Below are positions 1-36,845 of a stretch of 36,845 nt of DNA, one piece after another (positions within the stretch are counted from its first letter, which is position 1; each line of letters starts with the position of its first letter). The DNA is from a virus. Position numbers and translations under genes: made by a program. Location: positions 1-36,845 of IMG/VR virus record IMGVR_UViG_3300045988_085549; one strand, given 5' to 3'. Below the pieces are notes generated by a model, which searched no databases, was not told the origin of the DNA, and worked only from the letters and a program-made list of their open reading frames with translations.

Positions 1-55
1 ATATTCTCTAACTTCTTTTATTATGTTTTCTTTTTGTTGTAATTTAGTTTGTAAA
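1..55. repeat. Terminal exact direct repeat, copy 1 (identical to 36791..36845)
   Basis: nt 1-55 (atattctctaacttc...aatttagtttgtaaa) recur base-for-base as the last 55 nt of the window. A minus-strand ORF stays in frame across the junction. Confidence 0.95.
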
Positions 56-3977: not shown

Positions 3978-4383
3978 TATTTCCCTCCATTAAGCTTTTA
4001 ATCATTTCTTCTTGATACTCTTCTAATTTTAATGTGTATTGACCATCTAATTTAGCTTTATTTTTTATTTTTGAATATGTTTTTAATATCCTCATAGCTC
4101 TTTTATATAGGTGTGATAAGGTGGAATAAACCTCGTCTTGATTAGTTCCAATGTAATATCCACCTTTATTACCAGCCTCACTACATATTATTAAATTATA
4201 TTCATCTCTTATTTTTTTTATGTAATCTCTAAATGTTTTATTGTCAGTTATATTAAACTCTTTCATAATTATAGCTGATTTTACTCGTTTTTCGTATCCT
4301 AGGGCGTTGTTTATTAAATATTCGTATATTTTATTGGTTAACTCGTTTCGTTGCTCTAAAGGGCTTAAAATATCGTTTTTCAT
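3961..4383 (-). CDS. Hypothetical protein (possible winged-helix DNA binder)
   Basis: 140 aa. RBS AAGGAGG. ATGA overlap with the sigma-factor stop. No confident family assignment. Confidence 0.6.
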   Translation of the reverse strand: MKNDILSPLEQRNELTNKIYEYLINNALGYEKRVKSAIIMKEFNITDNKTFRDYIKKIRDEYNLIICSEAGNKGGYYIGTNQDEVYSTLSHLYKRAMRILKTYSKIKNKAKLDGQYTLKLEEYQEEMIKSLMEGNNEVIQ

Positions 4384-4934
4384 ATATCCTCCTTTTTTAC
4401 CATTTCTTTTAATTTTCTCATACCTGCTTTTCTCATCCTAGAAGTTCTTGTATGGCTTAATCCCATTTCTTTTGCTATTTCAGTTAAGTTCTTTTCTTTA
4501 CATCCTATTCCATAATACATTTTTATTACTTTTACATATCTTTCATTTTTTATTTTATTTAATAATCTTACAACTTGTTCATATCTTAATTTTTGTATAA
4601 CTTCTTTTTCAATATCTACATTATTTGGTATTACTTCATATAAATTTACATTGTCATTAAAATCATCATCTAGTGAAACTTCTCCATAAGGATTATATCT
4701 TCCTTTAGTAGTTTTGAATTTAAAACACTTCATTATCTCGTGTTTTATACAAATAGTTAAATATGTACTTTCTGCTATTCCTTTACTTTTATCATAGGTT
4801 TTAGCCCCTTTTATCAGCCCATCCATACCATAATCATAATATTCTTGAAATTCATTTTCATTTCTAGGTTTTATGTTTAATTGTTTCATAGCCATTATTA
4901 TTAAACCTACATTGTTTAATACTAAATCATCCAT
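4380..4934 (-). CDS. Sigma-70 family RNA polymerase sigma factor (regions 2 and 4)
   Basis: 184 aa. Region 2-like YDYGMDGLIKGAKTYDKSKGIAESTYLTICIKHEI. Region 4 HTH LTEIAKEMGLSHTRTSRMRKAGMRKLKE. Confidence 0.8.
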   Translation of the reverse strand: MDDLVLNNVGLIIMAMKQLNIKPRNENEFQEYYDYGMDGLIKGAKTYDKSKGIAESTYLTICIKHEIMKCFKFKTTKGRYNPYGEVSLDDDFNDNVNLYEVIPNNVDIEKEVIQKLRYEQVVRLLNKIKNERYVKVIKMYYGIGCKEKNLTEIAKEMGLSHTRTSRMRKAGMRKLKEMVKKEDI

Positions 4935-5661: not shown

Positions 5662-5826
5662 TTAATTCTCCTCTATAATTATTTTTTTACCTTTTGCATA
5701 TACTTTTATTTGTTTATCTTCTAATTCTGCTTGTTTTACTATTTCTTTTGATATTTTTATACCATAACAATTAAGTTTTTTTTCTCCTTTTGCTGTTCTA
5801 TAATAGTTTTTTGATAGTCTTGCCAC
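5662..5826 (-). CDS. AbrB/SpoVT-like small protein (54 aa, GTG start, not in the ORF track)
   Basis: GGAGGTGGTAAAGTG start context. Translation: VARLSKNYYRTAKGEKKLNCYGIKISKEIVKQAELEDKQIKVYAKGKKIIIEEN. The GIKISKEIVKQAEL...IKVYAKGKKIII pattern resembles AbrB-type swapped hairpins. Confidence 0.4.
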   Translation of the reverse strand: MARLSKNYYRTAKGEKKLNCYGIKISKEIVKQAELEDKQIKVYAKGKKIIIEEN

Positions 5827-6084: not shown

Positions 6085-6114
6085 TTTCTTCATCCTCCTC
6101 TTGATTACAATACC

Positions 6115-6143
6115 ATATTACCATATAGCCATATAATTGTCAA
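6115..6143 (-). promoter_or_regulatory. Sigma-A-type promoter (TTGACA, 17 nt, TGG-TAATAT)
   Basis: Minus strand reads TTGACAattatatggctatatggTAATAT, just downstream of the terminator at 6173..6194. Confidence 0.5.
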
Positions 6144-6172
6144 TACCCTAAATTAATTTTTTTTCACTTTAC

Positions 6173-6194
6173 AAAAAAAGAGCTGTAAAGCCCT
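6173..6194 (-). terminator. Rho-independent terminator closing the accessory cassette
   Basis: Minus-strand RNA AGGGCU-UUAC-AGCUCU followed by a U run. One pair is G-U on the minus strand only (A-C on plus). It starts right after the stop at 6195. Confidence 0.55.
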
Positions 6195-6551
6195 TTATTT
6201 TACTATCCAACAATATTCTGCTATTCTATCTCGGCAGTCAAAACTATCATATACCACACCATATTTAGAACAAACTATGTGTCCTCTCATTGTTATTAAT
6301 AATACATTATCTGGGTACATACCAGCTACTTCTCCAACTCTTTCAGGTAAATTATAAACTCTTGTATATCTTTCATCAAGATATTCTCTTATAAAGTCTT
6401 TATCGTCCATCATAGTTCCTTGAAGTCTTGCTACATTGCTTAAATGTTTATAAGTATCATCCCATGTATTATCAGTGGCAGTCGCTATACTTCTTATTGT
6501 GCAGTCGTTCTCGAATAATCCAAGAGCATTGTTATTATAAAATTTATACAT
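6195..6551 (-). CDS. Hypothetical protein with papain-like Cys...His arrangement (putative cysteine peptidase/amidase)
   Basis: 118 aa. N-terminal FENDCTIRSIATA (candidate nucleophile Cys) and C-terminal ITMRGHIVCSKYGVVYDSFD (candidate His/Asp). No clear SD, and the start abuts the upstream stop. Confidence 0.4.
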   Translation of the reverse strand: MYKFYNNNALGLFENDCTIRSIATATDNTWDDTYKHLSNVARLQGTMMDDKDFIREYLDERYTRVYNLPERVGEVAGMYPDNVLLITMRGHIVCSKYGVVYDSFDCRDRIAEYCWIVK

Positions 6552-6552
6552 T

Positions 6553-7026
6553 TTACATCATTGATTCTTGTATTGCTTCTCTTAACATTTGCTTTTGTTG
6601 AGGTGTTTCTGCATTTTCAAAAAGAACTTTAGTAAAGTCTTTATAAGCTTCTACCATATAATAAAAACTTTTATCGGTTTCTTCACTAGCTCCGTATCTT
6701 TCTCGATTTTCTTGGTATCTTCCGTATTCTCCAGCCATTCTGTCAAATTCGTCATCTCCGTAATATTTTCTATCACGTCCACGTCTACCATATGATCCAG
6801 CTCCATATTCTCCGTAATTACGTCCATAACTATCATATCCTGGTCGTCTACCTCTTCCATAATTTCCGTACATTTCTTCTTCCTCCTTTATACATTTAAT
6901 TTTGTAGGCATCTTTTTTAGTTTCCATAAGTTTATTAAGATGTTCTAGGTTATTGTTTTCTCCAATACCTTGTTCCATTATTTGCTTAATAAATTTATCA
7001 GTTTCTTCTATTATTTTATCTTCCAT
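6553..7026 (-). CDS. Hypothetical protein with central Arg/Gly/Tyr-rich low-complexity region
   Basis: 157 aa. Residues 52-112 (nt 6691-6873) contain 12 Tyr, 14 Gly and 12 Arg in 61 residues (YGRGRRPGYDSYGRNYGEYGAGSYGRRGRDRKYYG...). Helical-looking termini flank this region. RBS AAGGAGG. Confidence 0.6.
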   Translation of the reverse strand: MEDKIIEETDKFIKQIMEQGIGENNNLEHLNKLMETKKDAYKIKCIKEEEEMYGNYGRGRRPGYDSYGRNYGEYGAGSYGRRGRDRKYYGDDEFDRMAGEYGRYQENRERYGASEETDKSFYYMVEAYKDFTKVLFENAETPQQKQMLREAIQESMM

Positions 7027-7210
7027 CAGAAGTCCTCCTTTCTTTAAGGATATTTAGTATTTCTTCTTGATTTTTTATAATCTTTTGAAAATACTCATTG
7101 TCTTGCTTTTGTAACTCTTGCATTAAGTCAGTATTTTTATAATCTTGCATTAATAAAACAAGATTATATACTTGCAAAATTAAAGATGTTGCATCTAAAT
7201 TGTTTCTCAT
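7016..7210 (-). CDS. Small hypothetical helical protein
   Basis: 64 aa. The ATG immediately follows the upstream stop (TAGATG) with no SD, which suggests coupled translation. Confidence 0.5.
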   Translation of the reverse strand: MRNNLDATSLILQVYNLVLLMQDYKNTDLMQELQKQDNEYFQKIIKNQEEILNILKERRTSDGR

Positions 7211-7678
7211 CTAAATTCGACTTATACTGAATGTTGCGTTAGTAATAATTGCCTGTGTAGTTGCTATTGGTGTTGTAGGTGTAGTTGGTGTAGGCACACT
7301 TGGTACACTTTGAACTGATATGTTAGTAGTTCCACGAGGGCATACTCTTAACTTTTTATCAAAAGAAATAGTTTCATAATCATCAGCAGCTGCAATTGTT
7401 ACGGCTCTTACTGTGTCAGGAATTAATACTCCATCTTGAAATAATCCAATAGCCACAACACCAGGGGTAGCCGTACTTACCGAAGCACTAAATTCTACAT
7501 CATAATATCCTGTGTATCCATTACCGAATATTTTAAAATTAGGATTACCGTTTGAATAATCTAACCAACCGTTGCAATTGCAACTAGCACATCTTGTTCT
7601 GATGTCTGTTTCATCAAAAGTTACTGGGCTTGCATTACTTGGCAAAGCAAGAGGCTCATTAATTATAGTTTCAATCAT
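7211..7678 (-). CDS. C1q/TNF-like jelly-roll protein resembling exosporium BclA C-terminal domain/BxpB (tentative)
   Basis: 155 aa. The pattern FKIFGNGYTGYYDVEFSASVSTATPGVVAIGLFQDGVLIPDT...ISVQSV...NATFSISRI resembles BclA-CTD/BxpB-type beta sandwiches. There is an N-proximal CASCNC motif and a Pro/Thr tract PSVPTPTTPTTP. RBS AAAGGAGAA. Confidence 0.35.
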   Translation of the reverse strand: MIETIINEPLALPSNASPVTFDETDIRTRCASCNCNGWLDYSNGNPNFKIFGNGYTGYYDVEFSASVSTATPGVVAIGLFQDGVLIPDTVRAVTIAAADDYETISFDKKLRVCPRGTTNISVQSVPSVPTPTTPTTPIATTQAIITNATFSISRI

Positions 7679-7734
7679 AAATCATTCTCCTTTCATTTTT
7701 GCACTATTTTTTTAAAATATTGTGTATTTTTTAT

Positions 7735-7759
7735 AAAAAAGAGTGGGGCTTGCCCACTC
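7735..7759 (-). terminator. Rho-independent terminator
   Basis: Minus strand reads GAGUGGG-CAAGC-CCCACUC followed by UUUUUU, about 80 nt after the stop at 7840. Confidence 0.75.
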
Positions 7760-7839
7760 ATTGACCATTTTCCCTTTATAGGGAATTTGGTATTTAGCAA
7801 GTTCTCGTAATCGAGCAAGTAGTAGTCTACTCTATGCTA

Positions 7840-8703
7840 TTAAATAAATTGGCTTGTTGTGTTATATCCACAGCCACATCCGTTGTTGTTAGGGCAAGTG
7901 AATATAGGTGTGCGTCCATAAACTGGAGTGCTTGGTACTGGGCAGTTGCTTAATCTGTTATAAAGAGCGTCAACTTCATTTGCAAAACCTTGTGAAATGA
8001 AAGCATTTTGAGCTGTTTGACTAGCTCTTAAATCAGCCATTGTTAATTGTCTTTCTAAGTCACTAATTTTATCGTTTTTAGCGTCTAACTCTAATTGACA
8101 TAACTTATCAAGGATAGCCTGTGTATTAGCTGTTGCATTTGTAATAATATCTCTTGTATTATTTGCATCAGCAAATCTTGTAGCATTACCCTCATTTTGA
8201 ACTATGTTTTGAGTTTGACAAGTAGCTAAACGATTTTCACAGCAACATGAAGCTAAGTCAGAAGCTAAACCTGTTATTGCTCCTGTTATAGCAGTTTGGG
8301 AATTAAATGCTTGTTGCATATCTGCTATTTGTCTAGCATTTGCAGATATTTCAGCTCCAGCAAAACCACTATTTACAGCTTGAACTATATCAGCAGTTGA
8401 CCCACAAATTTGTGTTGATAAGTTGTGAATTGAATCTCTTGCTCCCTCAATTTGATTACTTAGGTGTAAAGTATCAAAACCATCATTAACATTATTGTTA
8501 ATTCCATTTTGACCTGTTAATAGCCAAGGAAACTCGTACATACCATTTCCTCCACCAAATCCACCAAATAATCCTCCATTACCAAGCATACCTAGTGCGA
8601 CTAAACCGATTATCCATTCTCCCATTGAGCTACCCCAACCATTATTATTGCCACCACTGACATCAAAAGTTGGAATTACTCCAGTTGAATTTCCACTGTT
8701 CAT
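7840..8703 (-). CDS. Hypothetical Gly-zipper membrane / Asn-Gln-Ala-Thr-rich helical protein with Cys clusters
   Basis: 287 aa. N-terminal GEWIIGLVALGMLGNGGLFGGFGGGNG. Long N/Q/A/T-rich helical region. 10 Cys, including SCCCENRLATC and the C-terminal FTCPNNNGCGCGY. RBS AAAGGAGAAA. G+C is 38 of 100 nt in a hand-counted sample (8201-8300). Confidence 0.65.
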   Translation of the reverse strand: MNSGNSTGVIPTFDVSGGNNNGWGSSMGEWIIGLVALGMLGNGGLFGGFGGGNGMYEFPWLLTGQNGINNNVNDGFDTLHLSNQIEGARDSIHNLSTQICGSTADIVQAVNSGFAGAEISANARQIADMQQAFNSQTAITGAITGLASDLASCCCENRLATCQTQNIVQNEGNATRFADANNTRDIITNATANTQAILDKLCQLELDAKNDKISDLERQLTMADLRASQTAQNAFISQGFANEVDALYNRLSNCPVPSTPVYGRTPIFTCPNNNGCGCGYNTTSQFI

Positions 8704-8744
8704 AGTCTTTTTCTCCTTTCTATAAATTTATTTATATCAAACAC

Positions 8745-8999
8745 CTATTGAGTGTTGATACCCATTTCATTTTGTATTTCATTCAATACTTCATTAGGAA
8801 AACCTAATCTTTGAGCAGTAATATAAAAATTCTGCATTTGTTGAGGTGTGTAATTTCCAGTTACTTGTTTTAATAACCCCATAGGGCTACTTTGATTTTG
8901 CTTTGCTTGTTCTAGAAACTGAAACATTTGAGGTTGATTTTGTCTTAATTGGTTCATCAATTGTTGTGTCACTTGACCTCTCACTTGTTGATTCATCAT
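8745..8999 (-). CDS. Gln-rich small hypothetical protein
   Basis: 84 aa (MMNQQVRGQVTQQLMNQLRQNQPQMFQFLEQAKQNQ...). RBS AAGGGA lies 8 nt upstream. The first 113 nt overlap the upstream ORF in another frame. Confidence 0.5.
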   Translation of the reverse strand: MMNQQVRGQVTQQLMNQLRQNQPQMFQFLEQAKQNQSSPMGLLKQVTGNYTPQQMQNFYITAQRLGFPNEVLNEIQNEMGINTQ

Positions 9000-9393
9000 T
9001 AATCATCCCTTTCAACTTTTCGTTTTCACTCATTAATTTTTCTATTAAAATATCTTTTTCGTCTTTCGGTATTATTTCCTTAATTTCAAAAGGTCTTATT
9101 TCCCCTTTGGCATTTTTTATATACATTTGTTTATAATCATTTGTTATAAAAGCAGTATCAACTATTGTAAATTCTCTTTTTACATCTTCTATTGAATTTA
9201 CATATTTAATACCATTATTTCCGTTAGGTGCTAATTGTATTGTCTGATTTATAGCTGGTTGTTGTTGATACCTATTAAGGTAATTTTCTTTTTTCTTTTT
9301 TAATAATTCCTCTTCTTTCTCAATTGTTTTTATATAATCATCATTAAAAACCTGCTGATTCATTGGAAAGTTAGGCATATAATTGTTATACAT
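8887..9393 (-). CDS. Hypothetical protein
   Basis: 168 aa. RBS AGGAGGA. The N-terminus is Asn/Gln/Pro-rich (MYNNYMPNFPMNQQ). The last ~37 codons are Ser/Thr-rich and overlap the next ORF. Confidence 0.55.
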   Translation of the reverse strand: MYNNYMPNFPMNQQVFNDDYIKTIEKEEELLKKKKENYLNRYQQQPAINQTIQLAPNGNNGIKYVNSIEDVKREFTIVDTAFITNDYKQMYIKNAKGEIRPFEIKEIIPKDEKDILIEKLMSENEKLKGMINDESTSERSSDTTIDEPIKTKSTSNVSVSRTSKAKSK

Positions 9394-9394
9394 A

Positions 9395-9553
9395 TTATCC
9401 TCCTATGTAAATATTTATTGTTGGTTCTTCTTTATTATCAGATAAAAGAAGTAAACATAATAAAGCTAATACCCAGTTGCTTTCTATATCGTTTGACAAA
9501 TTAGGTGCTTCATTTTCTTGTCTATATTTTTTTAAAAGTTCTTCTATATCCAT
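9395..9553 (-). CDS. Small hypothetical protein (52 aa, not in the ORF track)
   Basis: RBS AGGAGGA plus ATG at 9553. Translation: MDIEELLKKYRQENEAPNLSNDIESNWVLALLCLLLLSDNKEEPTINIYIGG. The C-terminal codons (ATAGGAGGATAA) carry the RBS of the next gene. Confidence 0.4.
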   Translation of the reverse strand: MDIEELLKKYRQENEAPNLSNDIESNWVLALLCLLLLSDNKEEPTINIYIGG

Positions 9554-9566
9554 ATATCCTCCTATT

Positions 9567-9645
9567 AAAAAAGAGAGTGATAATATACTTAATACTTTTC
9601 AAAATGTGTTTTAAACAAATCTAATAAGCGATATTATCTCCTCTC
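9567..9645 (-). terminator. Long interrupted hairpin followed by a U run (terminator-like or regulatory leader)
   Basis: Arms 9573-9586 and 9631-9645 pair as 8 bp + 5 bp with a 1x2 internal loop and a 44-nt apical loop. UUUUUU follows on the minus strand, directly before the RBS of the 9553 gene. Confidence 0.35.
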
Positions 9646-9663
9646 ATGCTTACATTAAACCAT

Positions 9664-9692
9664 AAAAAAAGAACTTAAAATCTTTAAGTTCT
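9664..9692 (-). terminator. Rho-independent terminator after the HNH endonuclease gene
   Basis: Minus strand reads AGAACUUAAA-GAU-UUUAAGUUCU followed by U6-7, starting 4 nt after the stop at 9696. Confidence 0.7.
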
Positions 9693-9695
9693 TGT

Positions 9696-10268
9696 CTAAT
9701 TATTGTCATCTGCATATTTCCATATATAACCACCTGCTGTTTTTCTTTTCCCTCTACATACAGCAGATATACTTGAATTATCTATATTTAAAACTTTTTT
9801 TGCATCTAATATGTATTCAAAGCTATTGATATAATTACCATTTAAATCATATTGTTTTACTTTTCTTTTAAATCTCGGCTTTTCTAAGCCATTTTTATAA
9901 GCGTGTATTTGATTTTCACTATTAGTACACCACTCTAAATTACAAACTCTATTATCAGTTTTTATTCCGTTAATATGATTTATTTGTGGTTTATTTTCAG
10001 GATTAGGTATAAATGCTTGTGCTACTAATCTGTGAATTTTTTCACTTTTTAATTTCCCATCTTTATGTAAAGTATAATTAAGATAATTTTTTTTATCACG
10101 AACTAATTTTATAATAATAACTTTTTCTTTTTTTATTAGACTTTTTAATCTTCCATAATTAGATATTTGATATAAACCTTCATATCCTTTTATATCTTTC
10201 CATATTTCATTTTTTAAATTTGTTAAATCAAACCACTTTTCACTATTTACTTCTACTTGTTCAAACAT
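9696..10268 (-). CDS. HNH homing endonuclease (NUMOD4 + HNH_3 + C-terminal DNA-binding module)
   Basis: 190 aa. WKDIKGYEGLYQISNYGRLKS is NUMOD4-like. INHINGIKTDNRVCNLEWCTNSENQIHA is the HNH core. SISAVCRGKRKTAGGYIWKY is the typical C-terminal motif. Confidence 0.85.
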   Translation of the reverse strand: MFEQVEVNSEKWFDLTNLKNEIWKDIKGYEGLYQISNYGRLKSLIKKEKVIIIKLVRDKKNYLNYTLHKDGKLKSEKIHRLVAQAFIPNPENKPQINHINGIKTDNRVCNLEWCTNSENQIHAYKNGLEKPRFKRKVKQYDLNGNYINSFEYILDAKKVLNIDNSSISAVCRGKRKTAGGYIWKYADDNN

Positions 10269-10288
10269 ATAATTCCTCCTTTAAATGC

Positions 10289-10365
10289 AAAAAGAGTATC
10301 ATATTTCTATACACTACAAGTTTTTACGTTCAATAAGCCTTGTAATGCACAGAAATATAATACTC
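10289..10365 (-). terminator. 27-bp hairpin plus U5: terminator/attenuator immediately upstream of the HNH gene RBS
   Basis: Arms 10294-10320 and 10339-10365. They form 23 Watson-Crick pairs plus 4 positions that are G-U on the minus strand but C-A mismatches on the plus strand. The 18-nt loop is followed by UUUUUGCAUUUAAAGGAGG. Confidence 0.7.
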
Positions 10366-10387
10366 TAATTGCTTATTGAACACATTA

Positions 10388-10416
10388 ATTATACCACAAA
10401 AAAAGGCAATAGTCAA
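10388..10416 (-). promoter_or_regulatory. Sigma-A-type promoter (TTGACT, 17 nt, TGG-TATAAT) firing into the hairpin leader
   Basis: Minus strand reads TTGACTattgcctttttttgtggTATAAT. The predicted start near 10381 is the first base of an 11-nt segment complementary to the hairpin loop. Confidence 0.6.
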
Positions 10417-10631
10417 ATTACCTTTTTTATTTTTTTCTTAATTTTGCTTATTTCTCTACTTATTGTTGATTCACTACAATTTTCTAGCATTGCCATTTTA
10501 GTTATTGAATATTCTTCAAGCCTATAATTTATTATTCTTTCTTGCATGGAAGTAAAATGTATTTTAGATTTTATATAATCTATTTCATCATTAGTAAATT
10601 CTATTTTTAACATTAAATATACCTTTGACAA
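10413..10631 (-). CDS. Small sigma-70 region-4-like / HTH transcriptional regulator
   Basis: FTSMQERIINYRLEEYSITKMAMLENCSESTISREISKIKKKI resembles a region-4/LuxR-type HTH. The track start is TTG (10631); the ATG at 10613 is an alternative. Confidence 0.5.
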   Translation of the reverse strand: MSKVYLMLKIEFTNDEIDYIKSKIHFTSMQERIINYRLEEYSITKMAMLENCSESTISREISKIKKKIKKVI

Positions 10632-10685: not shown

Positions 10686-10958
10686 TTAGTTTTTGTCGTT
10701 TTTGTTTGCTTTATCTTTTGTTTCGCCATTATTTATATCTCCATTGCTACCAATAAAATTATTATTACCACTTTCATTTTCTTGTTCTACTTGTTGTGTT
10801 GTGGTTTCTTCCACAGTCCCTATGTCATTTAAAGTATAGACTAAATAACCTATCGTTACAAACCACATAACTAATATTACTAAAATAACAATAAATTGTC
10901 TTTTATTAGCTTTTTTACTATCTTGAAGCAATTCCCAAGCCAAACTTTTTTCTTCCAT
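10686..10958 (-). CDS. Single-pass membrane protein with acidic/Asn-rich tail
   Basis: ATG at 10958 follows AAAGGAGAG (the track start at 10976 is TTG inside the RBS). TM segment FIVILVILVMWFVTIGYLVY. Located directly downstream of the endolysin gene. Confidence 0.55.
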   Translation of the reverse strand: MEEKSLAWELLQDSKKANKRQFIVILVILVMWFVTIGYLVYTLNDIGTVEETTTQQVEQENESGNNNFIGSNGDINNGETKDKANKNDKN

Positions 10959-11011
10959 TTCTCTCTCTCCTTTCAAATTAAATATAATATATATTTATTT
11001 TTTAGTCAAGA

Positions 11012-12441: not shown

Positions 12442-13706
12442 TTAATCTAGTTTCCAGTCTTTGTAATACACCACATCAAACTCTACATCTAAACCGCTTT
12501 CGTTAGTTACAGTGATATGGTTTGTGCCCTCAAATAGTTTTATCGCATTAAGTTGATTATATAATGTAGGGTAATTGCTTTCAGTTATTTCTTCTGTTGT
12601 TGGTGTGGCTAGTTGATAATATACTATTATGTTATGTGTTGATAACCAAGTTTTAAAACTTGTTACATCTGTAAAATTACTGTCATATAATGCTAAAAAA
12701 GAAGCACCTAAAGATATAGATTTATCTTTTTTAAAAGTTGTATTAATTATATAATATCTACTCCTACATATATATTTATCACATAGTCCTTGTGGTGCTA
12801 CTGAACCAGTCCAATCTATACCACCAGTTAAAGATGTTTGCAAATAATGATTATAATAAGTCCAATTCTCACTACCATCATAAACAACTTTACCTATTTC
12901 TTTGTATAAATACCATTTACCATTTTGGTTGTATAGTTTGTCTTGATGATCTCCTCTTTTGCATAATTCAAAAGGTAAATCTAATTTATATTCTTTTTCT
13001 TCAGTTCCTTGTGTAATATTTACAGTGGTTTCACCATTTATGTTTACTATATCTTGTGGATAATCAGGACTAGGTGAAGCTGTTTCACCCGTGTATTCTT
13101 CATAATCGGTGGCTTCCGACCCTTCTTCTAACATTACATTAAATATATCAATACTTCCCCCAGTTAAACGAGTTGTAATATATACATATATAGCACTTTT
13201 ATTTGTTATCGTTGCTGTAATTTTGCCTTCTGTAGCTGATGATGATGTTGCCAATGCTATATATTCATTATCCCGCCTAAGCATTATAACAGCGCCAGTT
13301 GATGAAAAAGTTGGTGAATTATATTTATAATCAAAACTTAATGTATATGTTTTAGTGTTATCTATACTATAATTATTAATTAGGTATTGGTCAAATCCTT
13401 TTGGTGTAATCGTTCTATCTTCTACATTTATTTTATTTTTCCCAGTAGTACTCTTTTGATATGTATTCCCATATTGATTAACCAACGCTTTCATGTCAAC
13501 ACCGTCGCTAATATCAACTGTGTTTGTAGCATTTACTGTTTTGGTAGGTATCAATGATTTATATTTTTCATTATTATTACTTATTTTTTCTGCATATTGT
13601 CGGAATGTAGTATTATCATTTATTACTTCAAAATCTTCATTAATAGCTTCTTTTATCGCTTGTTTTGTACCATTAAGGTAAGTTAATTTGTCTGCTATTG
13701 TTCCCA

Positions 13707-13707
<1 letters not shown>
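12442..13707 (-). CDS. Tail fibre / receptor-binding protein
   Basis: 421 aa. The N-terminal GTIADKLTYLNGTKQAIKEAI motif is common in Firmicute phage fibres. A central jelly-roll-like segment ends in NVMLEEGSEATDYEEY. It is the last structural gene before lysis. Confidence 0.65.
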
Positions 13708-14845
<1,138 letters not shown>

Positions 14846-14849
<4 letters not shown>

Positions 14850-23183: not shown

Positions 23184-24101
23184 TTATTCTACTGCAGTTG
23201 TATCTAAGTCTACATAGATACTATCAATGTTTCCATCTTTTCCATTAGGGAATACAAATGTATCATAGTGAGCTCTATTTTGATATAAATATCCATCACC
23301 CTCAGTATGTTCTCCTGGTGCAAAGAAGTAAATAGAAGCTATTTTTGGTACCATTTTAGTTGTTAATGGTGTACAAGCTAACATATTAATTTTGAAAGCT
23401 CCTGTTGCTGGTTCATATCCATCTGTAAAGTCGAATGCTGAATAGAATCTATCATCATCAATTACTTCTACAATTGGAGTTCCGTCTATTGATGTAATTC
23501 TTGTTTGAATAGCTTTACCACCTTGTACTATTGTTGTACTTTCCATTGTATGAGTAAGTTCTCCAGAAAGTGCTAGTAAATCCATTAGTTCAGGTGCTAG
23601 ATATACTATTAATCCTTTGTTTCTATATCTTCTTACTTTTCCTATGAATGCTGATACTTTGCTGTAAATATTATCTTTTGTATAAGTATTTCTTGCAGTA
23701 GATGTTTTTAAGTTGTTTGTTGTTGCAACAGTTGCTACTTTACTGAAGAAATATGCGTCTTTTTCAGGTACTGCTTGTGTTTTTTCAAATGTTTCTGATA
23801 CATTTTCAACAGTTGCAGTTCTATTAGATTCGTCTACTTCTCTCTTATCCATAAAGAACTCTACATCTCTATCTTGTGTAACTGTAAATACTTTATCAGC
23901 TTCTACGATAGGTTGTCTATTCCATCCTCCGTTTAAGCTATGAGCTTTATATCCTCCTACTTGTAATGTTGTAAAATGAAAGTTCTTTGCGTCTAACCAT
24001 TCTACATTAGTTGTAATAAATGGTGCTACATAAGAACCCTCAATAAATGTGTCAATTAATTTTCTTTCATATTTTGAAGCATAATTTATTGTATTTGCCA
24101 T
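23184..24101 (-). CDS. Major capsid protein
   Basis: 305 aa. Follows the scaffold gene. Less AT-rich than the early genes (30 G+C in nt 23201-23300 by hand count). N-terminus MANTINYASKYERKLIDTFIEGSYV. Confidence 0.8.
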   Translation of the reverse strand: MANTINYASKYERKLIDTFIEGSYVAPFITTNVEWLDAKNFHFTTLQVGGYKAHSLNGGWNRQPIVEADKVFTVTQDRDVEFFMDKREVDESNRTATVENVSETFEKTQAVPEKDAYFFSKVATVATTNNLKTSTARNTYTKDNIYSKVSAFIGKVRRYRNKGLIVYLAPELMDLLALSGELTHTMESTTIVQGGKAIQTRITSIDGTPIVEVIDDDRFYSAFDFTDGYEPATGAFKINMLACTPLTTKMVPKIASIYFFAPGEHTEGDGYLYQNRAHYDTFVFPNGKDGNIDSIYVDLDTTAVE

Positions 24102-24719: not shown

Positions 24720-24780
24720 ATTTACCTTTATTTAAAACGTCGGCTCCGTTCTATGTAGTAGAGCTTTAACACTCACTTAT

Positions 24781-24810
24781 ATTATACTACAAAACCAACA
24801 TTTAGGTCAA
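24781..24810 (-). promoter_or_regulatory. Sigma-A-type promoter (TTGACC, 18 nt, TATAAT) ahead of scaffold and capsid genes
   Basis: Minus strand reads TTGACCtaaatgttggttttgtagTATAATataagtg. It shares the GTAGTATAATATA-R-GTG box with the promoter at 32091..32119. Confidence 0.55.
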
Positions 24811-36709: not shown

Positions 36710-36845
36710 CTATTCTCCTTTATCTAATATTCTTAAAATTATCTTTTCGTTATCTTCTAATGAACCATATTCTTTTTCGTTTTCCTCTATATATTCTCTA
36801 ACTTCTTTTATTATGTTTTCTTTTTGTTGTAATTTAGTTTGTAAA
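36710..36845 (-). CDS. C-terminal part of the junction-spanning coiled-coil gene (36791-36845 duplicate nt 1-55)
   Basis: Reading down from 36790: IEENEKEYGSLEDNEKIILRILDKGE, then TAG at 36710-36712. In frame with 234..1 across the junction. Confidence 0.7.
   Translation of the reverse strand, partial: LQTKLQQKENIIKEVREYIEENEKEYGSLEDNEKIILRILDKGE
36791..36845. repeat. Terminal exact direct repeat, copy 2 (identical to 1..55)
   Basis: See copy 1. Confidence 0.95.

What the first reader, a model, noticed from the sequence alone, without database searches (positions are those of the whole stretch)
6195..9553. Less AT-rich cassette of seven or eight unrecognisable Gly-, Cys-, Tyr- and Arg-rich proteins, closed by a terminator and preceded by two hairpin elements: best candidate for an undescribed system
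**Location and boundaries.** The cassette sits between the homing-endonuclease island and the early region.
- Hairpin/U-run elements at 9567-9692 lie upstream.
- A terminator at 6173-6194 closes it.
- A strong internal terminator lies at 7735-7759.
- Genes are tightly coupled: 9395/9393, 7211/7210, a 7026/7016 overlap, and 6553/6551.

**Composition.** Hand counts give 39 and 38 G+C per 100 nt at 7211-7310 and 8201-8300. The capsid gene gives 30 (23201-23300) and the early region 20 (1-100).

**Products.**
- A Gly-zipper membrane anchor fused to an Asn/Gln/Ala/Thr-rich helical rod with 10 Cys.
- A C1q/BclA-CTD-like jelly roll with a CxxCxC motif and a Pro/Thr linker.
- A protein whose central 61 residues are 62 percent Tyr, Gly and Arg.
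- A Cys...His peptidase-like protein.
- Gln-rich small proteins.

**Interpretation.** This inventory (disulfide-prone Cys clusters, Tyr/Gly-rich segments, a BclA-type domain) resembles spore coat and exosporium proteins more than any phage module I know. The same phage encodes a sigma factor and AbrB-like proteins.
- Hypothesis 1: a phage-carried module that remodels the spore or cell surface.
- Hypothesis 2: an unusual virion decoration or second receptor-binding apparatus.
- Hypothesis 3: an envelope-located superinfection-exclusion system.
Basis: partly seen in the sequence, partly recalled or inferred. Interest (0 to 1): 0.8.

Follow-up and report, generated by a model that had tools for sequence, protein, structure and literature searches.

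The report
Widespread uncharacterised gut-phage accessory operon
The cassette is real: it is one copy of a self-contained operon of six or seven genes plus two upstream regulator-like genes, found in thousands of animal-gut phage sequences, that has no name or known function in any library searched here.

Summary
All eight ORFs, their tight coupling, both terminators, the upstream hairpins and the composition figures check out.

The cassette is not a chance run of orphan genes. The order g168-g84-g287-g155-g64-g157-g118 recurs in dozens of phage contigs. A permuted form (g118 first) occurs in Butyrivibrio phage Ceridwen and many others.

- **Upstream additions:** a sigma-region-4-like HTH gene, a small membrane protein, an extended -10 promoter-like site and a structured terminator-type leader with covarying pairs.
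- **Folds:** g155 has a TNF/C1q/BclA-type jelly-roll fold. g118 carries an invariant Cys-His-Asp set in papain-like order, and an HExxH protein takes its place in some variants.
- **g287:** it has a glycine-rich hydrophobic segment, a coiled coil and ten conserved cysteines. Relatives occur in Clostridium perfringens, Bacteroides, crAss-like and Methanomassiliicoccales viruses.
- **Annotation:** Pfam, NCBIfam, PADLOC and PDB sequence searches gave nothing; PHROGs gave only "unknown function" families.
- **GC content:** the higher GC comes from amino-acid composition, not foreign origin.
- **Spore hypothesis:** the host range argues against it.

My best guess, at low confidence, is a mobile operon that builds a protease-matured, cysteine-stapled, sometimes glycosylated assembly. 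It would be made in the cytoplasm and exposed at lysis, possibly on virions.

The parts
10686..10976 (-). orf96: 96-aa single-pass membrane protein (cluster c6). It recurs upstream of the module and may partner the HTH protein.
   Evidence: One hydrophobic segment with Kyte-Doolittle maximum 2.87. BLASTP to 27 members of cluster c6. c6 lies within 1.5 kb upstream in 38 of 113 loci. No Pfam or PHROG hit for the cluster representative.
10413..10631 (-). orf72: 72-aa stand-alone sigma-70 region-4 / LuxR-GerE-type HTH protein (cluster HTH8), the likely module regulator.
   Evidence: Weak hits to phrog_1740 'RNA polymerase sigma factor' (E 7e-4) and to NCBIfam sigma70-ECF region 4 (E 1.6e-4). BLASTP to 31 members of cluster 8. 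Clusters 8, 11 and 37 are related (hhalign 95.9%), and one of them lies within 1.5 kb upstream in 65 of 113 loci.
9696..10268 (-). HNH/NUMOD homing endonuclease inserted between the HTH gene and the rest of the module. It is a passenger, not a functional part.
   Evidence: Pfam NUMOD4, HNH_3 and NUMOD1, and phrog_59 at 1.9e-50. In other loci the HTH gene directly precedes g168, and HNH genes sit at varying places in or beside the module in 23 loci.
9665..9692 (-).
   Evidence: Sequence read; stem predicted.
9654..9662 (-). Extended -10 promoter-like site, TGgTTTAAT.
   Evidence: Read from the sequence. The same TGnGATAAT / TGnAATAAT element sits at the same place before the leader or ribosome-binding site in many related loci. 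Function not tested.
9567..9645 (-). A long stem closes an apical UUUAAAAC-containing domain and runs into a U-tract. It is terminator-type, so either an attenuator or a small RNA.
   Evidence: Only one copy in the window, found by pattern scan. Fourteen orthologous leaders fold alike at -17.5 to -26 kcal/mol. RNAalifold predicts 15 outer-stem pairs, 10 with compensatory changes. No Rfam family matched.
9395..9553 (-). g52: small ORF, poorly conserved. Some loci carry a 17-26-aa hydrophobic mini-ORF in the leader instead.
   Evidence: 4 loci in the profile survey, 1 by tblastn. Mini-ORFs read from the sequences printed.
8887..9393 (-). g168: N/Q/Y-rich N-terminus, a small conserved domain (probably beta-rich), a coiled coil, and an acidic/Ser-rich stretch ending in a basic S/T/K tail.
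   Evidence: Alignments. Present in 69 loci, plus 51 with the type-B form (hhalign 93.1%, E 3e-7). No Pfam, PHROG or PDB match.
8745..8999 (-). g84: small Gln-rich helical protein. Its 5' end overlaps the 3' end of g168 in another frame.
   Evidence: Profile hits in 73 loci, with the overlap recurring. Its identity to relatives tracks that of g168 (r = 0.8). Automatic gene callers did not call it.
7840..8703 (-). g287: signature protein. It has a variable Gly-rich N-terminus, a glycine-zipper hydrophobic segment (residues 31-49), an N/Q/A/T-rich coiled coil and 10 conserved Cys (invariant CCC153-155, C276, C278).
   Evidence: phrog_16490 at 1.1e-22, function unknown. More than 8000 relatives, none named. 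750 clusters at 50% identity, none longer than 367 aa among the best 150. Alignment shows 7-residue indels. Marginal hydrophobicity of 1.65. No PDB match.
7741..7759 (-). Internal intrinsic terminator (probably an attenuator) after g287.
   Evidence: A hairpin plus T-run is present in 65 of 72 related loci that have a 40-300-nt gap between g287 and g155.
7211..7678 (-). g155: stand-alone TNF/C1q/BclA-type jelly roll. It has an N-terminal arm, a flexible Cys motif (C30, C33, C35), C113, and a Pro/Thr-rich loop before the last strand.
   Evidence: AlphaFold2 pLDDT 81, pTM 0.78. Foldseek against PDB: BclA, F-BclA, BxpB/ExsFA, C1q, EDA and cyanophage fibre domains, E 7e-6 to 1e-4, TM 0.5-0.65. Against BFVD: stand-alone 130-145-aa gut-phage proteins, TM up to 0.88. 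C33 and C113 are nearly invariant.
7016..7210 (-). g64: small helical protein, found with type-A modules and also in Clostridium perfringens phage XP41-N3.
   Evidence: 47-65 loci; XP41-N3 hit. No family match.
6553..7026 (-). g157: helical N- and C-terminal parts flanking a Tyr/Gly/Arg-rich low-complexity centre.
   Evidence: 62% YGR over 61 residues. The composition is conserved in 76 of 80 relatives. The cluster is present in 106 loci. The Arg/Asp/Tyr-rich variant c32 is related (hhalign 86%).
6195..6551 (-). g118: small protein with an invariant Cys17-His91-Asp102 set in papain-like order; a putative cysteine peptidase.
   Evidence: phrog_3754 at 9e-18, function unknown. Invariant columns. 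AlphaFold2 pLDDT 88, with Cys at the start of a helix and His and Asp on successive strands. The Foldseek best hit is only E 0.18, though the weak list includes several papain-like enzymes. An HExxH protein takes its place in 7 of 92 loci.
6177..6196 (-). Terminator closing the module. The next operon starts at a TTGACA-17-TAATAT promoter-like site at 6143-6115.

Best explanation
The cassette is one copy of an autonomous, horizontally mobile accessory operon of moron type.

**Layout.** It has its own promoter-like site, a structured terminator-type leader, an internal attenuator and a final terminator. A sigma-region-4-like HTH gene and a small membrane protein usually precede it.

**Proposed product (inferred).** The operon builds a multiprotein assembly in the cytoplasm that does its work only once the cell lyses.
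- g287 would be the abundant subunit: a coiled-coil protein with a glycine-zipper hydrophobic segment and cysteine clusters flanking the coiled coil.
- g155 would be a TNF/C1q-like head, probably trimeric.
- g168, g84, g64 and g157 would be low-complexity or coiled-coil adaptor or glue proteins.
- g118 would be a dedicated peptidase that matures one or more components. In variants an HExxH protein would do this.
- Neighbouring soluble glycosyltransferases would decorate the Pro/Thr- and Ser/Thr-rich segments in some phages.

**Proposed role (inferred).** Once oxidised outside the cell, the cysteines would staple the assembly. The most likely role is an adhesive or protective structure on, or accompanying, the released virions.

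**What is shown.** The conserved gene set, the folds and motifs, and the cis elements.

**What is inferred.** Assembly, location, proteolysis, glycosylation and function.
For: **Conserved, portable module.**
- Fixed order in most of about 150 loci, with a permuted type B.
- The flanks are highly varied: more than 600 non-redundant flanking ORFs.
- It is inserted after lysis genes, before integrases, after replication genes, or between the minor-head-protein and scaffold/capsid genes.

**Own cis elements.**

**No export route other than lysis.** No signal peptide is evident, and no protein except g287 has a hydrophobic segment above the Kyte-Doolittle threshold. The g287 segment is marginal and its N-terminal flank carries no positive charge.

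**Hints of an extracellular destination.**
- The TNF/C1q fold of g155 is the one used by BclA, BxpB/ExsFA, C1q and phage fibre tips.
- g287 has conserved cysteine clusters flanking a coiled coil that shows heptad-length indels.
- Pro/Thr and Ser/Thr segments are present.
- Soluble GT2, GT1 or Caps_synth-type transferases lie directly downstream in at least 13 loci.

**Stoichiometry control.** The terminator after g287 is conserved in 65 of 72 loci.

**A peptidase slot filled by unrelated enzymes.** Papain-like in 72 of 92 loci, HExxH in 7 of 92.

**Independent reassortment of gene alleles.** This is typical of host-interaction modules.

**Not tied to lysogeny or to one envelope type.**
- It is present in lytic phages. 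The window is a complete 36.8-kb circle in which I saw no integrase, and Ceridwen is lytic.
- It is also present in temperate phages.
- Hosts span Bacillota and Bacteroidota, and g287 reaches a methanogen virus.
Against: - No proteomic, imaging or expression data exist for any homologue. Only Ceridwen and a few Clostridium perfringens and Bacteroides phages are cultured, and the papers found hold no functional data.
- The module moves between unrelated virion types. That is hard to reconcile with a structure that must dock onto a specific capsid or tail.
- It lies outside the tail-fibre genes and has no PHROG structural annotation.
- A sigma-A-type extended -10 promoter, a dedicated regulator and a position next to integrases also fit a gene set expressed in the host cell for exclusion or host fitness.
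- The hydrophobic segment of g287 could be a true membrane anchor.
- Extracellular disulfides are uncertain in anoxic guts.
- The peptidase assignment of g118 has no significant fold or sequence match.
Confidence: 0.35

Rival explanations
1. A membrane-based superinfection-exclusion or abortive-infection system. g287 would be a membrane-inserted effector, g155 a sensor or binder, and g118 an activating protease. It would be expressed from its own promoter in lysogens and during lytic growth.
For: - Moron-like unit with its own promoter-like site, regulator gene and terminators.
- It often lies between lysis genes and the integrase, the classical place for conversion and exclusion genes.
- g287 has a glycine-zipper hydrophobic segment.
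- Gene alleles reassort as in conflict systems.
- The protease slot is interchangeable.
Against: - No match to any of the 5027 PADLOC models.
- Five of the seven proteins look like structural or low-complexity proteins, not enzymes or nucleotide sensors.
- A terminator that favours g287 over the downstream genes is odd if g287 is a toxic effector.
- Glycosyltransferase neighbours and the insertion inside head-gene clusters are unexplained.
- The hydrophobic segment is marginal and its N-terminal flank carries no positive charge.
Confidence: 0.2
2. A lysis accessory. g287 would be a class-III-holin-like or antiholin-like membrane protein (one transmembrane segment plus a large Cys-containing C-terminal domain, as I recall for T4 holin T). 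g118 would be a wall peptidase acting after the holin.
For: - Lysis genes (CW_7 endolysin, holins) lie within 4 kb upstream in 43 of 113 loci.
- In crAss-like phage cr115_1 the g287 relative follows genes annotated as holin and LysB-like.
- g118 has Cys-His-Asp in the order used by NlpC/P60 and CHAP wall hydrolases. The second-ranked weak Foldseek hit is the amidase Tae4.
Against: - The window already has an XhlA-like protein, a holin and an M23-type endolysin.
- In 70 of 113 loci no lysis gene was found within 4 kb upstream.
- The core of g287 is far more conserved than is usual for holins.
- Replacing g118 with an HExxH protein suggests protein substrates rather than peptidoglycan.
- g287 occurs in viruses of Methanomassiliicoccales, which to my knowledge lack murein.
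- The TNF-like and Tyr/Gly/Arg-rich proteins have no place in known lysis pathways.
Confidence: 0.1
3. One reading: a phage-carried module that adds proteins to the spore coat or exosporium of the host.
For: - g155 resembles BclA-CTD and BxpB/ExsFA.
- Cys-rich, Tyr/Gly-rich and Gln-rich proteins without signal peptides, a GerE-sized HTH regulator, soluble GT2 neighbours and a small cysteine enzyme all have counterparts in coat and exosporium assembly. This parallel is from my own knowledge.
- Some hosts form spores, for example Clostridium perfringens.
- The window phage encodes a sigma factor.
Against: - The module occurs in lytic Butyrivibrio phage Ceridwen.
- Variant modules occur in a Bacteroides uniformis phage, and g287 relatives in crAss-like phages and in Methanomassiliicoccales viruses. 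To my knowledge none of these hosts sporulates.
- The window genome appears to be virulent.
- g155 has no collagen-like region.
- There is no sequence-level match to any coat or exosporium family.
Confidence: 0.05
4. An intracellular role. Arg/Tyr/Gly-rich and Asn/Gln/Tyr-rich proteins would drive a condensate or scaffold at the membrane, organised by g287, that aids replication, assembly or host takeover.
For: - The low-complexity composition of g157 and of the N-terminus of g168 is conserved as composition, not as sequence.
- All parts are cytoplasmic by prediction.
- In some phages the module follows replication and recombination genes.
Against: - All characterised proteins with the TNF/C1q fold among the hits are extracellular or surface proteins.
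- Dense conserved cysteines, Pro/Thr loops and glycosyltransferase neighbours are not expected for a cytoplasmic scaffold.
- There are no nucleic-acid enzyme domains.
Confidence: 0.1

Closest known systems
BclA C-terminal domain and BxpB/ExsFA of the Bacillus exosporium (TNF/C1q-like jelly rolls)
   Same: g155 is predicted to have the same fold. The top Foldseek hits are 2z5w, 3twi, 9h38, 8d02 and 7r5i at E about 1e-5 and TM 0.5-0.65. Like BxpB, it is a stand-alone domain of about 150 residues with an N-terminal extension and no evident signal peptide.
   Different: Identity is only 12-16%, and there is no Pfam match. g155 has no collagen-like repeats. It carries a conserved Cys motif plus C113 that these proteins do not share. 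It is encoded by phages, including phages of non-sporulating hosts.
C1q/TNF-like distal domains of phage tail fibres and collagen-like phage proteins
   Same: Same fold. The hits include a chain of the cyanophage A4 portal-tail complex, the carbohydrate-binding domain of the A-1(L) short fibre, and many collagen-repeat Caudovirales proteins.
   Different: g155 is not fused to a shaft or a collagen stalk. It is not in the tail-fibre gene cluster. It travels with a fixed set of non-fibre genes.
Morons (autonomous promoter-gene-terminator units in phage genomes, in the sense of Hendrix and colleagues; from my own knowledge)
   Same: It has its own promoter-like site and terminators and sits at variable insertion points between conserved phage operons. 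It is present in only some related phages.
   Different: It is much larger, at 6-9 genes and about 3.3-4.6 kb. It has a dedicated regulator gene, a structured leader and internal attenuation. It is conserved as a set across phage lineages.
Papain-like cysteine peptidases and amidases (C39, NlpC/P60, CHAP)
   Same: g118 has an invariant Asn...Asp-Cys...His...Asp. The Cys starts a helix, and the His and Asp lie on successive strands. The weak Foldseek hits include Tae4, Josephin-2, viral deubiquitinases and PLpro.
   Different: No significant sequence or fold match was found. At 118 residues it is shorter than most members.
HExxH peptidase plus DUF7841 genes in Bacteroides phage C3_41T2LP (the peptidase is annotated there as 'PolyVal metallopeptidase superfamily domain protein')
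   Same: A variant of this module replaces g157 and g118 with DUF7841, an Arg/Asp/Tyr-rich protein and an HExxH protein. The same set follows the g287 relative in the Bacteroides phage.
   Different: The HExxH proteins of the two lineages align only around the motif (hhalign 13%). The window itself has the papain-like version.

Membership tests
TNF/C1q/BclA-CTD fold superfamily (g155) | Compact jelly-roll beta-sandwich with TNF-like topology | tested here: met
   AlphaFold2 pLDDT 81. Foldseek probability 1.00 to BclA, BxpB, C1q and EDA, with 65 PDB hits at E <= 1e-3.
TNF/C1q/BclA-CTD fold superfamily (g155) | Sequence-profile membership (Pfam C1q or TNF families) | tested here: not met
   No Pfam hit at E <= 1. 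No PDB sequence hit at E <= 10 with a 21-sequence profile.
TNF/C1q/BclA-CTD fold superfamily (g155) | Homotrimer | not tested
BclA-type exosporium glycoprotein / exosporium system | Collagen-like GXX repeat region and an N-terminal exosporium-targeting motif | tested here: not met
   The g155 sequence shows no GXX repeats.
BclA-type exosporium glycoprotein / exosporium system | Occurrence restricted to endospore formers | tested here: not met
   Found in phages of Butyrivibrio and Bacteroides, crAss-like phages and Methanomassiliicoccales viruses.
Papain-like cysteine peptidase (g118) | Invariant catalytic Cys, His and Asp/Asn in that order, with the Cys at a helix N-terminus | tested here: met
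   C17, H91 and D102 are invariant in 29- and 45-sequence alignments. Secondary-structure positions are from the model.
Papain-like cysteine peptidase (g118) | Significant fold or profile match to a known clan CA member | tested here: inconclusive
   The best Foldseek hit has E 0.18. Papain-like proteins appear only among the weak hits. There is no Pfam or PDB profile hit.
Papain-like cysteine peptidase (g118) | Proteolytic activity and a substrate | not testable with these tools
   Needs an enzyme assay. The only indirect support is that an HExxH protein takes its place in variant modules.
Phage tail fibre / receptor-binding module | Homology to known fibre or baseplate families and a location in the tail operon | tested here: not met
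   PHROG hits are only to function-unknown families. The tail-fibre genes lie at 12442-14849. The module's position varies between phages.
Known anti-phage defence systems | A match of any component to PADLOC models | tested here: not met
   No credible hit. The best is E 0.0019, over a coiled-coil stretch.
Moron-type autonomous unit | Own promoter and terminator, and a variable insertion site | tested here: met
   A conserved extended -10-like site, terminators and at least four kinds of insertion context. Promoter activity was not tested.
Holin / spanin | Small membrane protein with 1-4 clear transmembrane segments, encoded in a lysis cassette and able to permeabilise the membrane | tested here: inconclusive
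   g287 has one marginal hydrophobic segment (Kyte-Doolittle 1.65). Lysis genes are adjacent in 38% of loci. Activity cannot be tested here.
Described RNA families (leader element) | A match to an Rfam covariance model | tested here: not met
   Only one chance-level hit in 5.2 kb.

The most novel reading that the evidence does not exclude
Gut viruses of Bacillota and Bacteroidota, and perhaps of methanogenic archaea, share a plug-in operon that applies spore-coat logic to phage progeny.

The proteins would be made in the cytoplasm, trimmed by a dedicated peptidase and sometimes glycosylated. After lysis they would be cross-linked through cysteines, and perhaps tyrosines, into an armour, glue or occlusion-like matrix around or beside the virions.

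Expression would be gated by a new terminator-type leader RNA and a sigma-region-4-like regulator.
Probability: 0.12. Interest if true: 0.9.

Novelty: categorically new. Interest (0 to 1): 0.75.

Why it matters
**Scale.** The signature protein g287 has more than 8000 relatives in the metagenome protein collection. It falls into 750 clusters at 50% identity, and none carries a name.

**Reach.** It travels with a fixed partner set in phages of major gut and rumen bacteria. The window phage itself occurs in human gut metagenomes.

**Why that is unusual.** A conserved operon of about 4 kb that virulent and temperate phages of different phyla both keep, with its own regulator and leader RNA, must pay for itself. 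Yet nothing known explains it.

**What working it out would give.**
- Function for a sizeable block of gut-virome dark matter.
- Possibly a new way for phages to protect or attach their progeny, or to exclude rivals.
- A candidate new cis-regulatory RNA.
- A small cysteine-enzyme family (g118) with no relative detectable by sequence or fold search.

**Testability.** Cultured carriers exist: Butyrivibrio phage Ceridwen, and Clostridium perfringens phages CPD1, 17DYC, XP41-N3, HMD-PC1 and PMQ04.

Tried and rejected
**Searches that found nothing useful.**
- Megablast of the region against phage records: one 36-nt match only.
- Pfam, NCBIfam and PADLOC scans of all cassette proteins: nothing credible.
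- Profile searches of the PDB with the g118, g155, g287, g168 and g157 alignments: nothing meaningful.
- Foldseek of the g118 model against the PDB: nothing significant.
- Rfam scan: nothing.
- Literature searches on Ceridwen, BclA or C1q in phages, DUF7841 and the Clostridium perfringens carriers: no functional or proteomic data.
- tblastn of g155 against phage records: no match. The Ceridwen-type g155 had to be used as the query instead.
- hhalign of single Bacteroides-phage proteins against the module profiles: nothing above 20%. The resemblance there rests on DUF7841, composition and gene order.

**Ideas considered and dropped.**
- Recent foreign origin, inferred from GC content. GC3 is barely raised.
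- A g168-g84 programmed frameshift. g84 is in the +1 frame, and its conserved part begins near internal Met codons.
- An integrated Microviridae-like or satellite element, with g155 as a capsid jelly roll and g287 as a pilot protein. The Foldseek top hits are TNF/C1q proteins, not capsids, no replication gene is present, and the 4-6-kb records are fragments of larger phages.
- A glycocin or bacteriocin cluster. There is no transporter, and the Cys-rich protein is far too long.
- GtrB-type serotype conversion. The neighbouring GT2 has no membrane segment.

Full report

Yes.

- Terminator-like hairpins with U-runs lie at 7759-7741 and 6196-6177. Four were found in 5.1 kb, against 1.3 expected in shuffles.
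- The 156 nt upstream of the first ORF fold better than all 200 shuffles, z = -2.9.
- The hand counts of G+C are right: 0.39, 0.38, 0.30 and 0.19. The cassette averages 0.321, against 0.256 and 0.279 on its two sides.
- The excess sits at codon positions 1 and 2 (GC2 0.36 against 0.28; 0.51 in g155). Third positions differ little, 0.187 against 0.155. So the lower AT content reflects Gly/Ala/Thr/Cys/Arg-rich proteins, not recently imported DNA.
- The compositional claims hold: 10 Cys in g287, CxxCxC in g155, and 62% Tyr+Gly+Arg over 61 residues of g157.

**2. It is a conserved module, not a run of orphans.**

g287 matches phrog_16490 and g118 matches phrog_3754. Both are function-unknown families.

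- *Family size.* g287 has more than 8000 relatives in the metagenome protein collection, none named and none with a Pfam domain. They fall into 750 clusters at 50% identity. The best 150 are all stand-alone proteins, none longer than 367 residues.
- *Survey.* I fetched 80 viral contigs and 62 genome or MAG contigs around g287 relatives. I surveyed them by tblastn, profile HMMs and clustering of flanking ORFs.
- *Type A.* Dozens of loci carry g168-g84-g287-g155-g64-g157-g118 in the window's order.
- *Type B.* This form has g118 first. It is followed by a 142-aa protein that is a g168 homologue (hhalign 93%) and a 71-aa protein that is probably g84 (55%). Then come g287, g155 and a g157 relative. 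Butyrivibrio phage Ceridwen is type B.
- *Counts.* Among 141 loci the cluster counts are g287 141, g118 108, g155 107, g157 106, and g168 69 plus 51 of the type-B form.
- *Third variant.* It replaces g157 and g118 with a DUF7841 protein, an Arg/Asp/Tyr-rich protein related to g157 (hhalign 86%) and a small HExxH protein. The same trio follows the g287 relative in Bacteroides phage C3_41T2LP.
- *Reassortment.* Identity to the window varies gene by gene and is uncorrelated between most genes. For example, g155 can be 96% identical where g118 is 37%. Only g168 and g84 co-vary, r = 0.8.

**3. The parts.**

- *g155.*
  - AlphaFold2 with 49 sequences gave pLDDT 81.
  - Foldseek placed the model with BclA-CTD, the F-BclA tip, BxpB/ExsFA, C1q, EDA and two cyanophage tail-complex or fibre chains (E 7e-6 to 1e-4, TM 0.5-0.65).
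  - Among predicted viral structures the best matches are stand-alone 130-145-residue proteins of gut Sipho-, Podo- and Myoviridae contigs (TM up to 0.88).
  - The Cys motif lies in a low-confidence loop after an N-terminal arm. C33 and C113 are nearly invariant.
- *g118.*
  - The model is confident, pLDDT 88. Invariant Cys17 opens a helix, and His91 and Asp102 lie on successive strands.
  - That is the papain-like arrangement, but no fold match is significant. The best is E 0.18, and the weak list includes Tae4, Josephin-2, viral deubiquitinases and PLpro.
  - Unrelated HExxH proteins occupy the equivalent gene position in variant modules. That suggests this position calls for a peptidase.
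- *g287.*
  - It has a variable Gly-rich N-terminus and a short hydrophobic glycine-zipper segment. The segment is only marginally hydrophobic, and its N-terminal flank carries no positive charge.
  - A helical region follows, with 7-residue indels between homologues, which is the mark of a coiled coil.
  - Its near-invariant core begins with CCC153-155, and the C-terminus carries a CxC.
- *g157.* It keeps a Tyr/Gly/Arg-rich centre as composition rather than sequence in 76 of 80 relatives.
- *g168.*
  - It has an Asn/Gln/Tyr-rich start, a conserved small domain, a coiled coil and a Ser/Thr/Lys tail.
  - Its 3' end overlaps g84 in another frame in many loci.
- *Export.* No protein except g287 has a hydrophobic segment above the threshold.

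**4. Regulation, and a correction to the boundaries.**

- *Upstream genes.* In 65 of 113 loci a 65-78-residue sigma-region-4 / LuxR-type HTH gene lies just upstream. In 38 of 113 a 94-residue single-pass membrane protein precedes it. The window has both, orf72 and orf96. An HNH homing endonuclease gene, with its own promoter-like site and terminator, splits them from the cassette.
- *First hairpin.* It is that HNH terminator.
- *Second hairpin.* It is a conserved element. An extended -10-like site (TGnGATAAT or TGnAATAAT) is followed at once by a 65-77-nt stacked hairpin. Its 5' arm is GAAAGGAGA..., its apex carries UUUAAAAC, and its 3' arm runs into a U-tract.
- *Support for the hairpin.* Fourteen orthologues fold alike at -17.5 to -26 kcal/mol. 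Ten of the 15 outer-stem pairs show compensatory changes. No Rfam family matches.
- *What the hairpin could be.* It is either a conditional terminator in front of the operon or a small RNA gene.
- *Internal terminator.* The one after g287 recurs in 65 of 72 loci that have a gap there. g168, g84 and g287 are therefore probably made in excess over the downstream genes.

**5. Context and distribution.**

*The window genome.*
- The window ends overlap by exactly 55 nt, so it is a complete circular genome of about 36.8 kb.
- Its order is: tail fibres, XhlA-like protein, holin and M23 endolysin; then the module; then a promoter-like site; then the sigma factor, methylase, DnaD-like, Erf and exonuclease genes.
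- I saw no integrase.
- Exact copies of g287 occur in human gut metagenome assemblies.

*Insertion sites elsewhere.*
- After CW_7 endolysins and holins.
- Before integrases.
- After helicase/YqaJ genes.
- Between the portal/minor-head-protein genes and the scaffold/major-capsid genes.
- Soluble glycosyltransferases follow it in at least 13 loci.

*Hosts and sources.*
- Named sources are all animal guts.
- Reliable hosts include Butyrivibrio, Clostridium perfringens, Anaerotruncus and Bacteroides uniformis.
- g287 relatives also occur in crAss-like phages and in two Methanomassiliicoccales viruses.

**6. What it most likely does.**

Shown: a portable operon with its own cis elements, a TNF/C1q-like protein, a Cys-rich coiled-coil protein, low-complexity partners and a peptidase-like gene position.

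Inferred, step by step:
- Nothing but lysis can take these proteins out of the cell.
- The characterised proteins among the g155 fold hits act outside cells.
- Cysteine clusters flanking a coiled coil, Pro/Thr loops and neighbouring soluble glycosyltransferases are features of exposed proteins.
- The host range argues against dependence on any one envelope.

From this I propose a protease-matured, cysteine-stapled, sometimes glycosylated assembly. It would be built in the cytoplasm and would act after lysis as an adhesive or protective structure on or beside virions. My confidence is 0.35.

The main objection is that a structure able to hop between unrelated virion types cannot easily have a specific docking site. 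That keeps a released matrix or glue, or a non-virion role, in play.

**7. Rivals.**

- *Membrane-based exclusion or abortive infection (0.2).* It fits the moron-like design and the position beside integrases. It does not fit the structural look of most proteins, the lack of PADLOC hits or the attenuation that favours g287.
- *Lysis accessory (0.1).* It fits the frequent adjacency to lysis genes and the crAss context. It does not fit the archaeal viruses, the HExxH replacement or the strong sequence conservation.
- *Spore-surface remodelling (0.05).* The list of resemblances is striking, but non-sporulating hosts contradict it.
- *Intracellular condensate or scaffold (0.1).* It fits the low-complexity proteins only.

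**8. Comparison with known systems, and novelty.**

At fold level g155 belongs with TNF/C1q/BclA domains. At family level it does not: there is no profile match, no collagen stalk and no spore context. g118 works like a papain-type enzyme on paper but cannot be filed in any clan. The operon behaves like a very large moron.

No described phage module, defence system, lysis cassette, fibre locus or RNA family accommodates the set. The literature I could search holds nothing on it.

I therefore rate it categorically new as a system. Its function is unknown and may turn out to be a variant of a known theme.

**9. What would settle it.**

Virion and lysate proteomics, plus deletion phenotypes, in the cultured carriers: Ceridwen and Clostridium perfringens phages CPD1, 17DYC and XP41-N3. 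These should be joined by g118 cleavage assays, localisation of g287, and Term-seq or reporter tests of the leader with and without the HTH protein.

Noticed in passing
window 1-55 and 36791-36845: The two ends of the window are identical over exactly 55 nt. The window is therefore a complete circular, or circularly permuted, phage genome of about 36,790 bp. No integrase was seen among the ORFs I annotated.
   Followed up: partly
window 9567-9662 (minus strand); for example L032:5185-5260, L057:1938-2011, L084:2245-2321: An undescribed conserved cis element sits in front of the module. It is an extended -10-like site followed by a 65-77-nt three-tier hairpin with an apical UUUAAAAC motif, ending in a U-tract. 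Ten of the 15 outer-stem pairs covary. In some loci the same region instead carries a mini-ORF for a 17-26-aa hydrophobic peptide.
   Followed up: partly
window 8887-8999: g84 starts inside the 3' end of g168 in the +1 frame, an overlap of 113 nt from the first ATG. The overlap recurs in most type-A loci, and both frames look conserved. Automatic gene callers skip g84 and g64.
   Followed up: partly
window 9696-10268; L007, L055, L073 and other loci: HNH/NUMOD homing endonuclease genes sit at different positions inside or beside the module in 23 loci. In the window one sits between the regulator gene and the leader. They may drive the module's spread and the reassortment of its alleles.
   Followed up: partly
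L087:3406-4323 (crAss-like phage cr115_1): The annotated g287 relative, labelled 'spike protein/glycoprotein', contains two in-frame stop codons under table 11. This suggests stop-codon reassignment in that phage. It follows genes annotated as holin, LysB-like and sigma-factor-like, which echoes the membrane protein, HTH gene and g287 order seen in Bacillota phages.
   Followed up: no
L082, L097, L101, L040, L052, L090 (type-A loci): In a subset of phages the whole module plus glycosyltransferase genes is inserted inside the head-morphogenesis cluster. It sits between the portal/minor-head-protein genes and the scaffold/major-capsid genes.
   Followed up: partly
L151:4641-5522 (Caudoviricetes sp. 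vir215, host Methanomassiliicoccales): A g287 (phrog_16490) relative occurs in a virus assigned to gut methanogenic archaea, between a diversity-generating retroelement reverse transcriptase and the integrase. The other module genes were not detected there.
   Followed up: partly
window 4380-4934 and 5662-5826: The phage encodes a 184-aa sigma factor (phrog_351, E 4e-22). It lies in the operon that starts at the promoter-like site right after the module's terminator.
   Followed up: partly
window 24720-24806, 10269-10412, 1684-1728, 6094-6194: Several intergenic regions carry TGnTATAAT-type extended -10 sites (TGTAGTATAAT, TGTGGTATAAT, TGTGTTATAAT, TGGTAATAT). This suggests host sigma-A promoters that do not depend on a -35 element, spread across the genome.
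   Followed up: no
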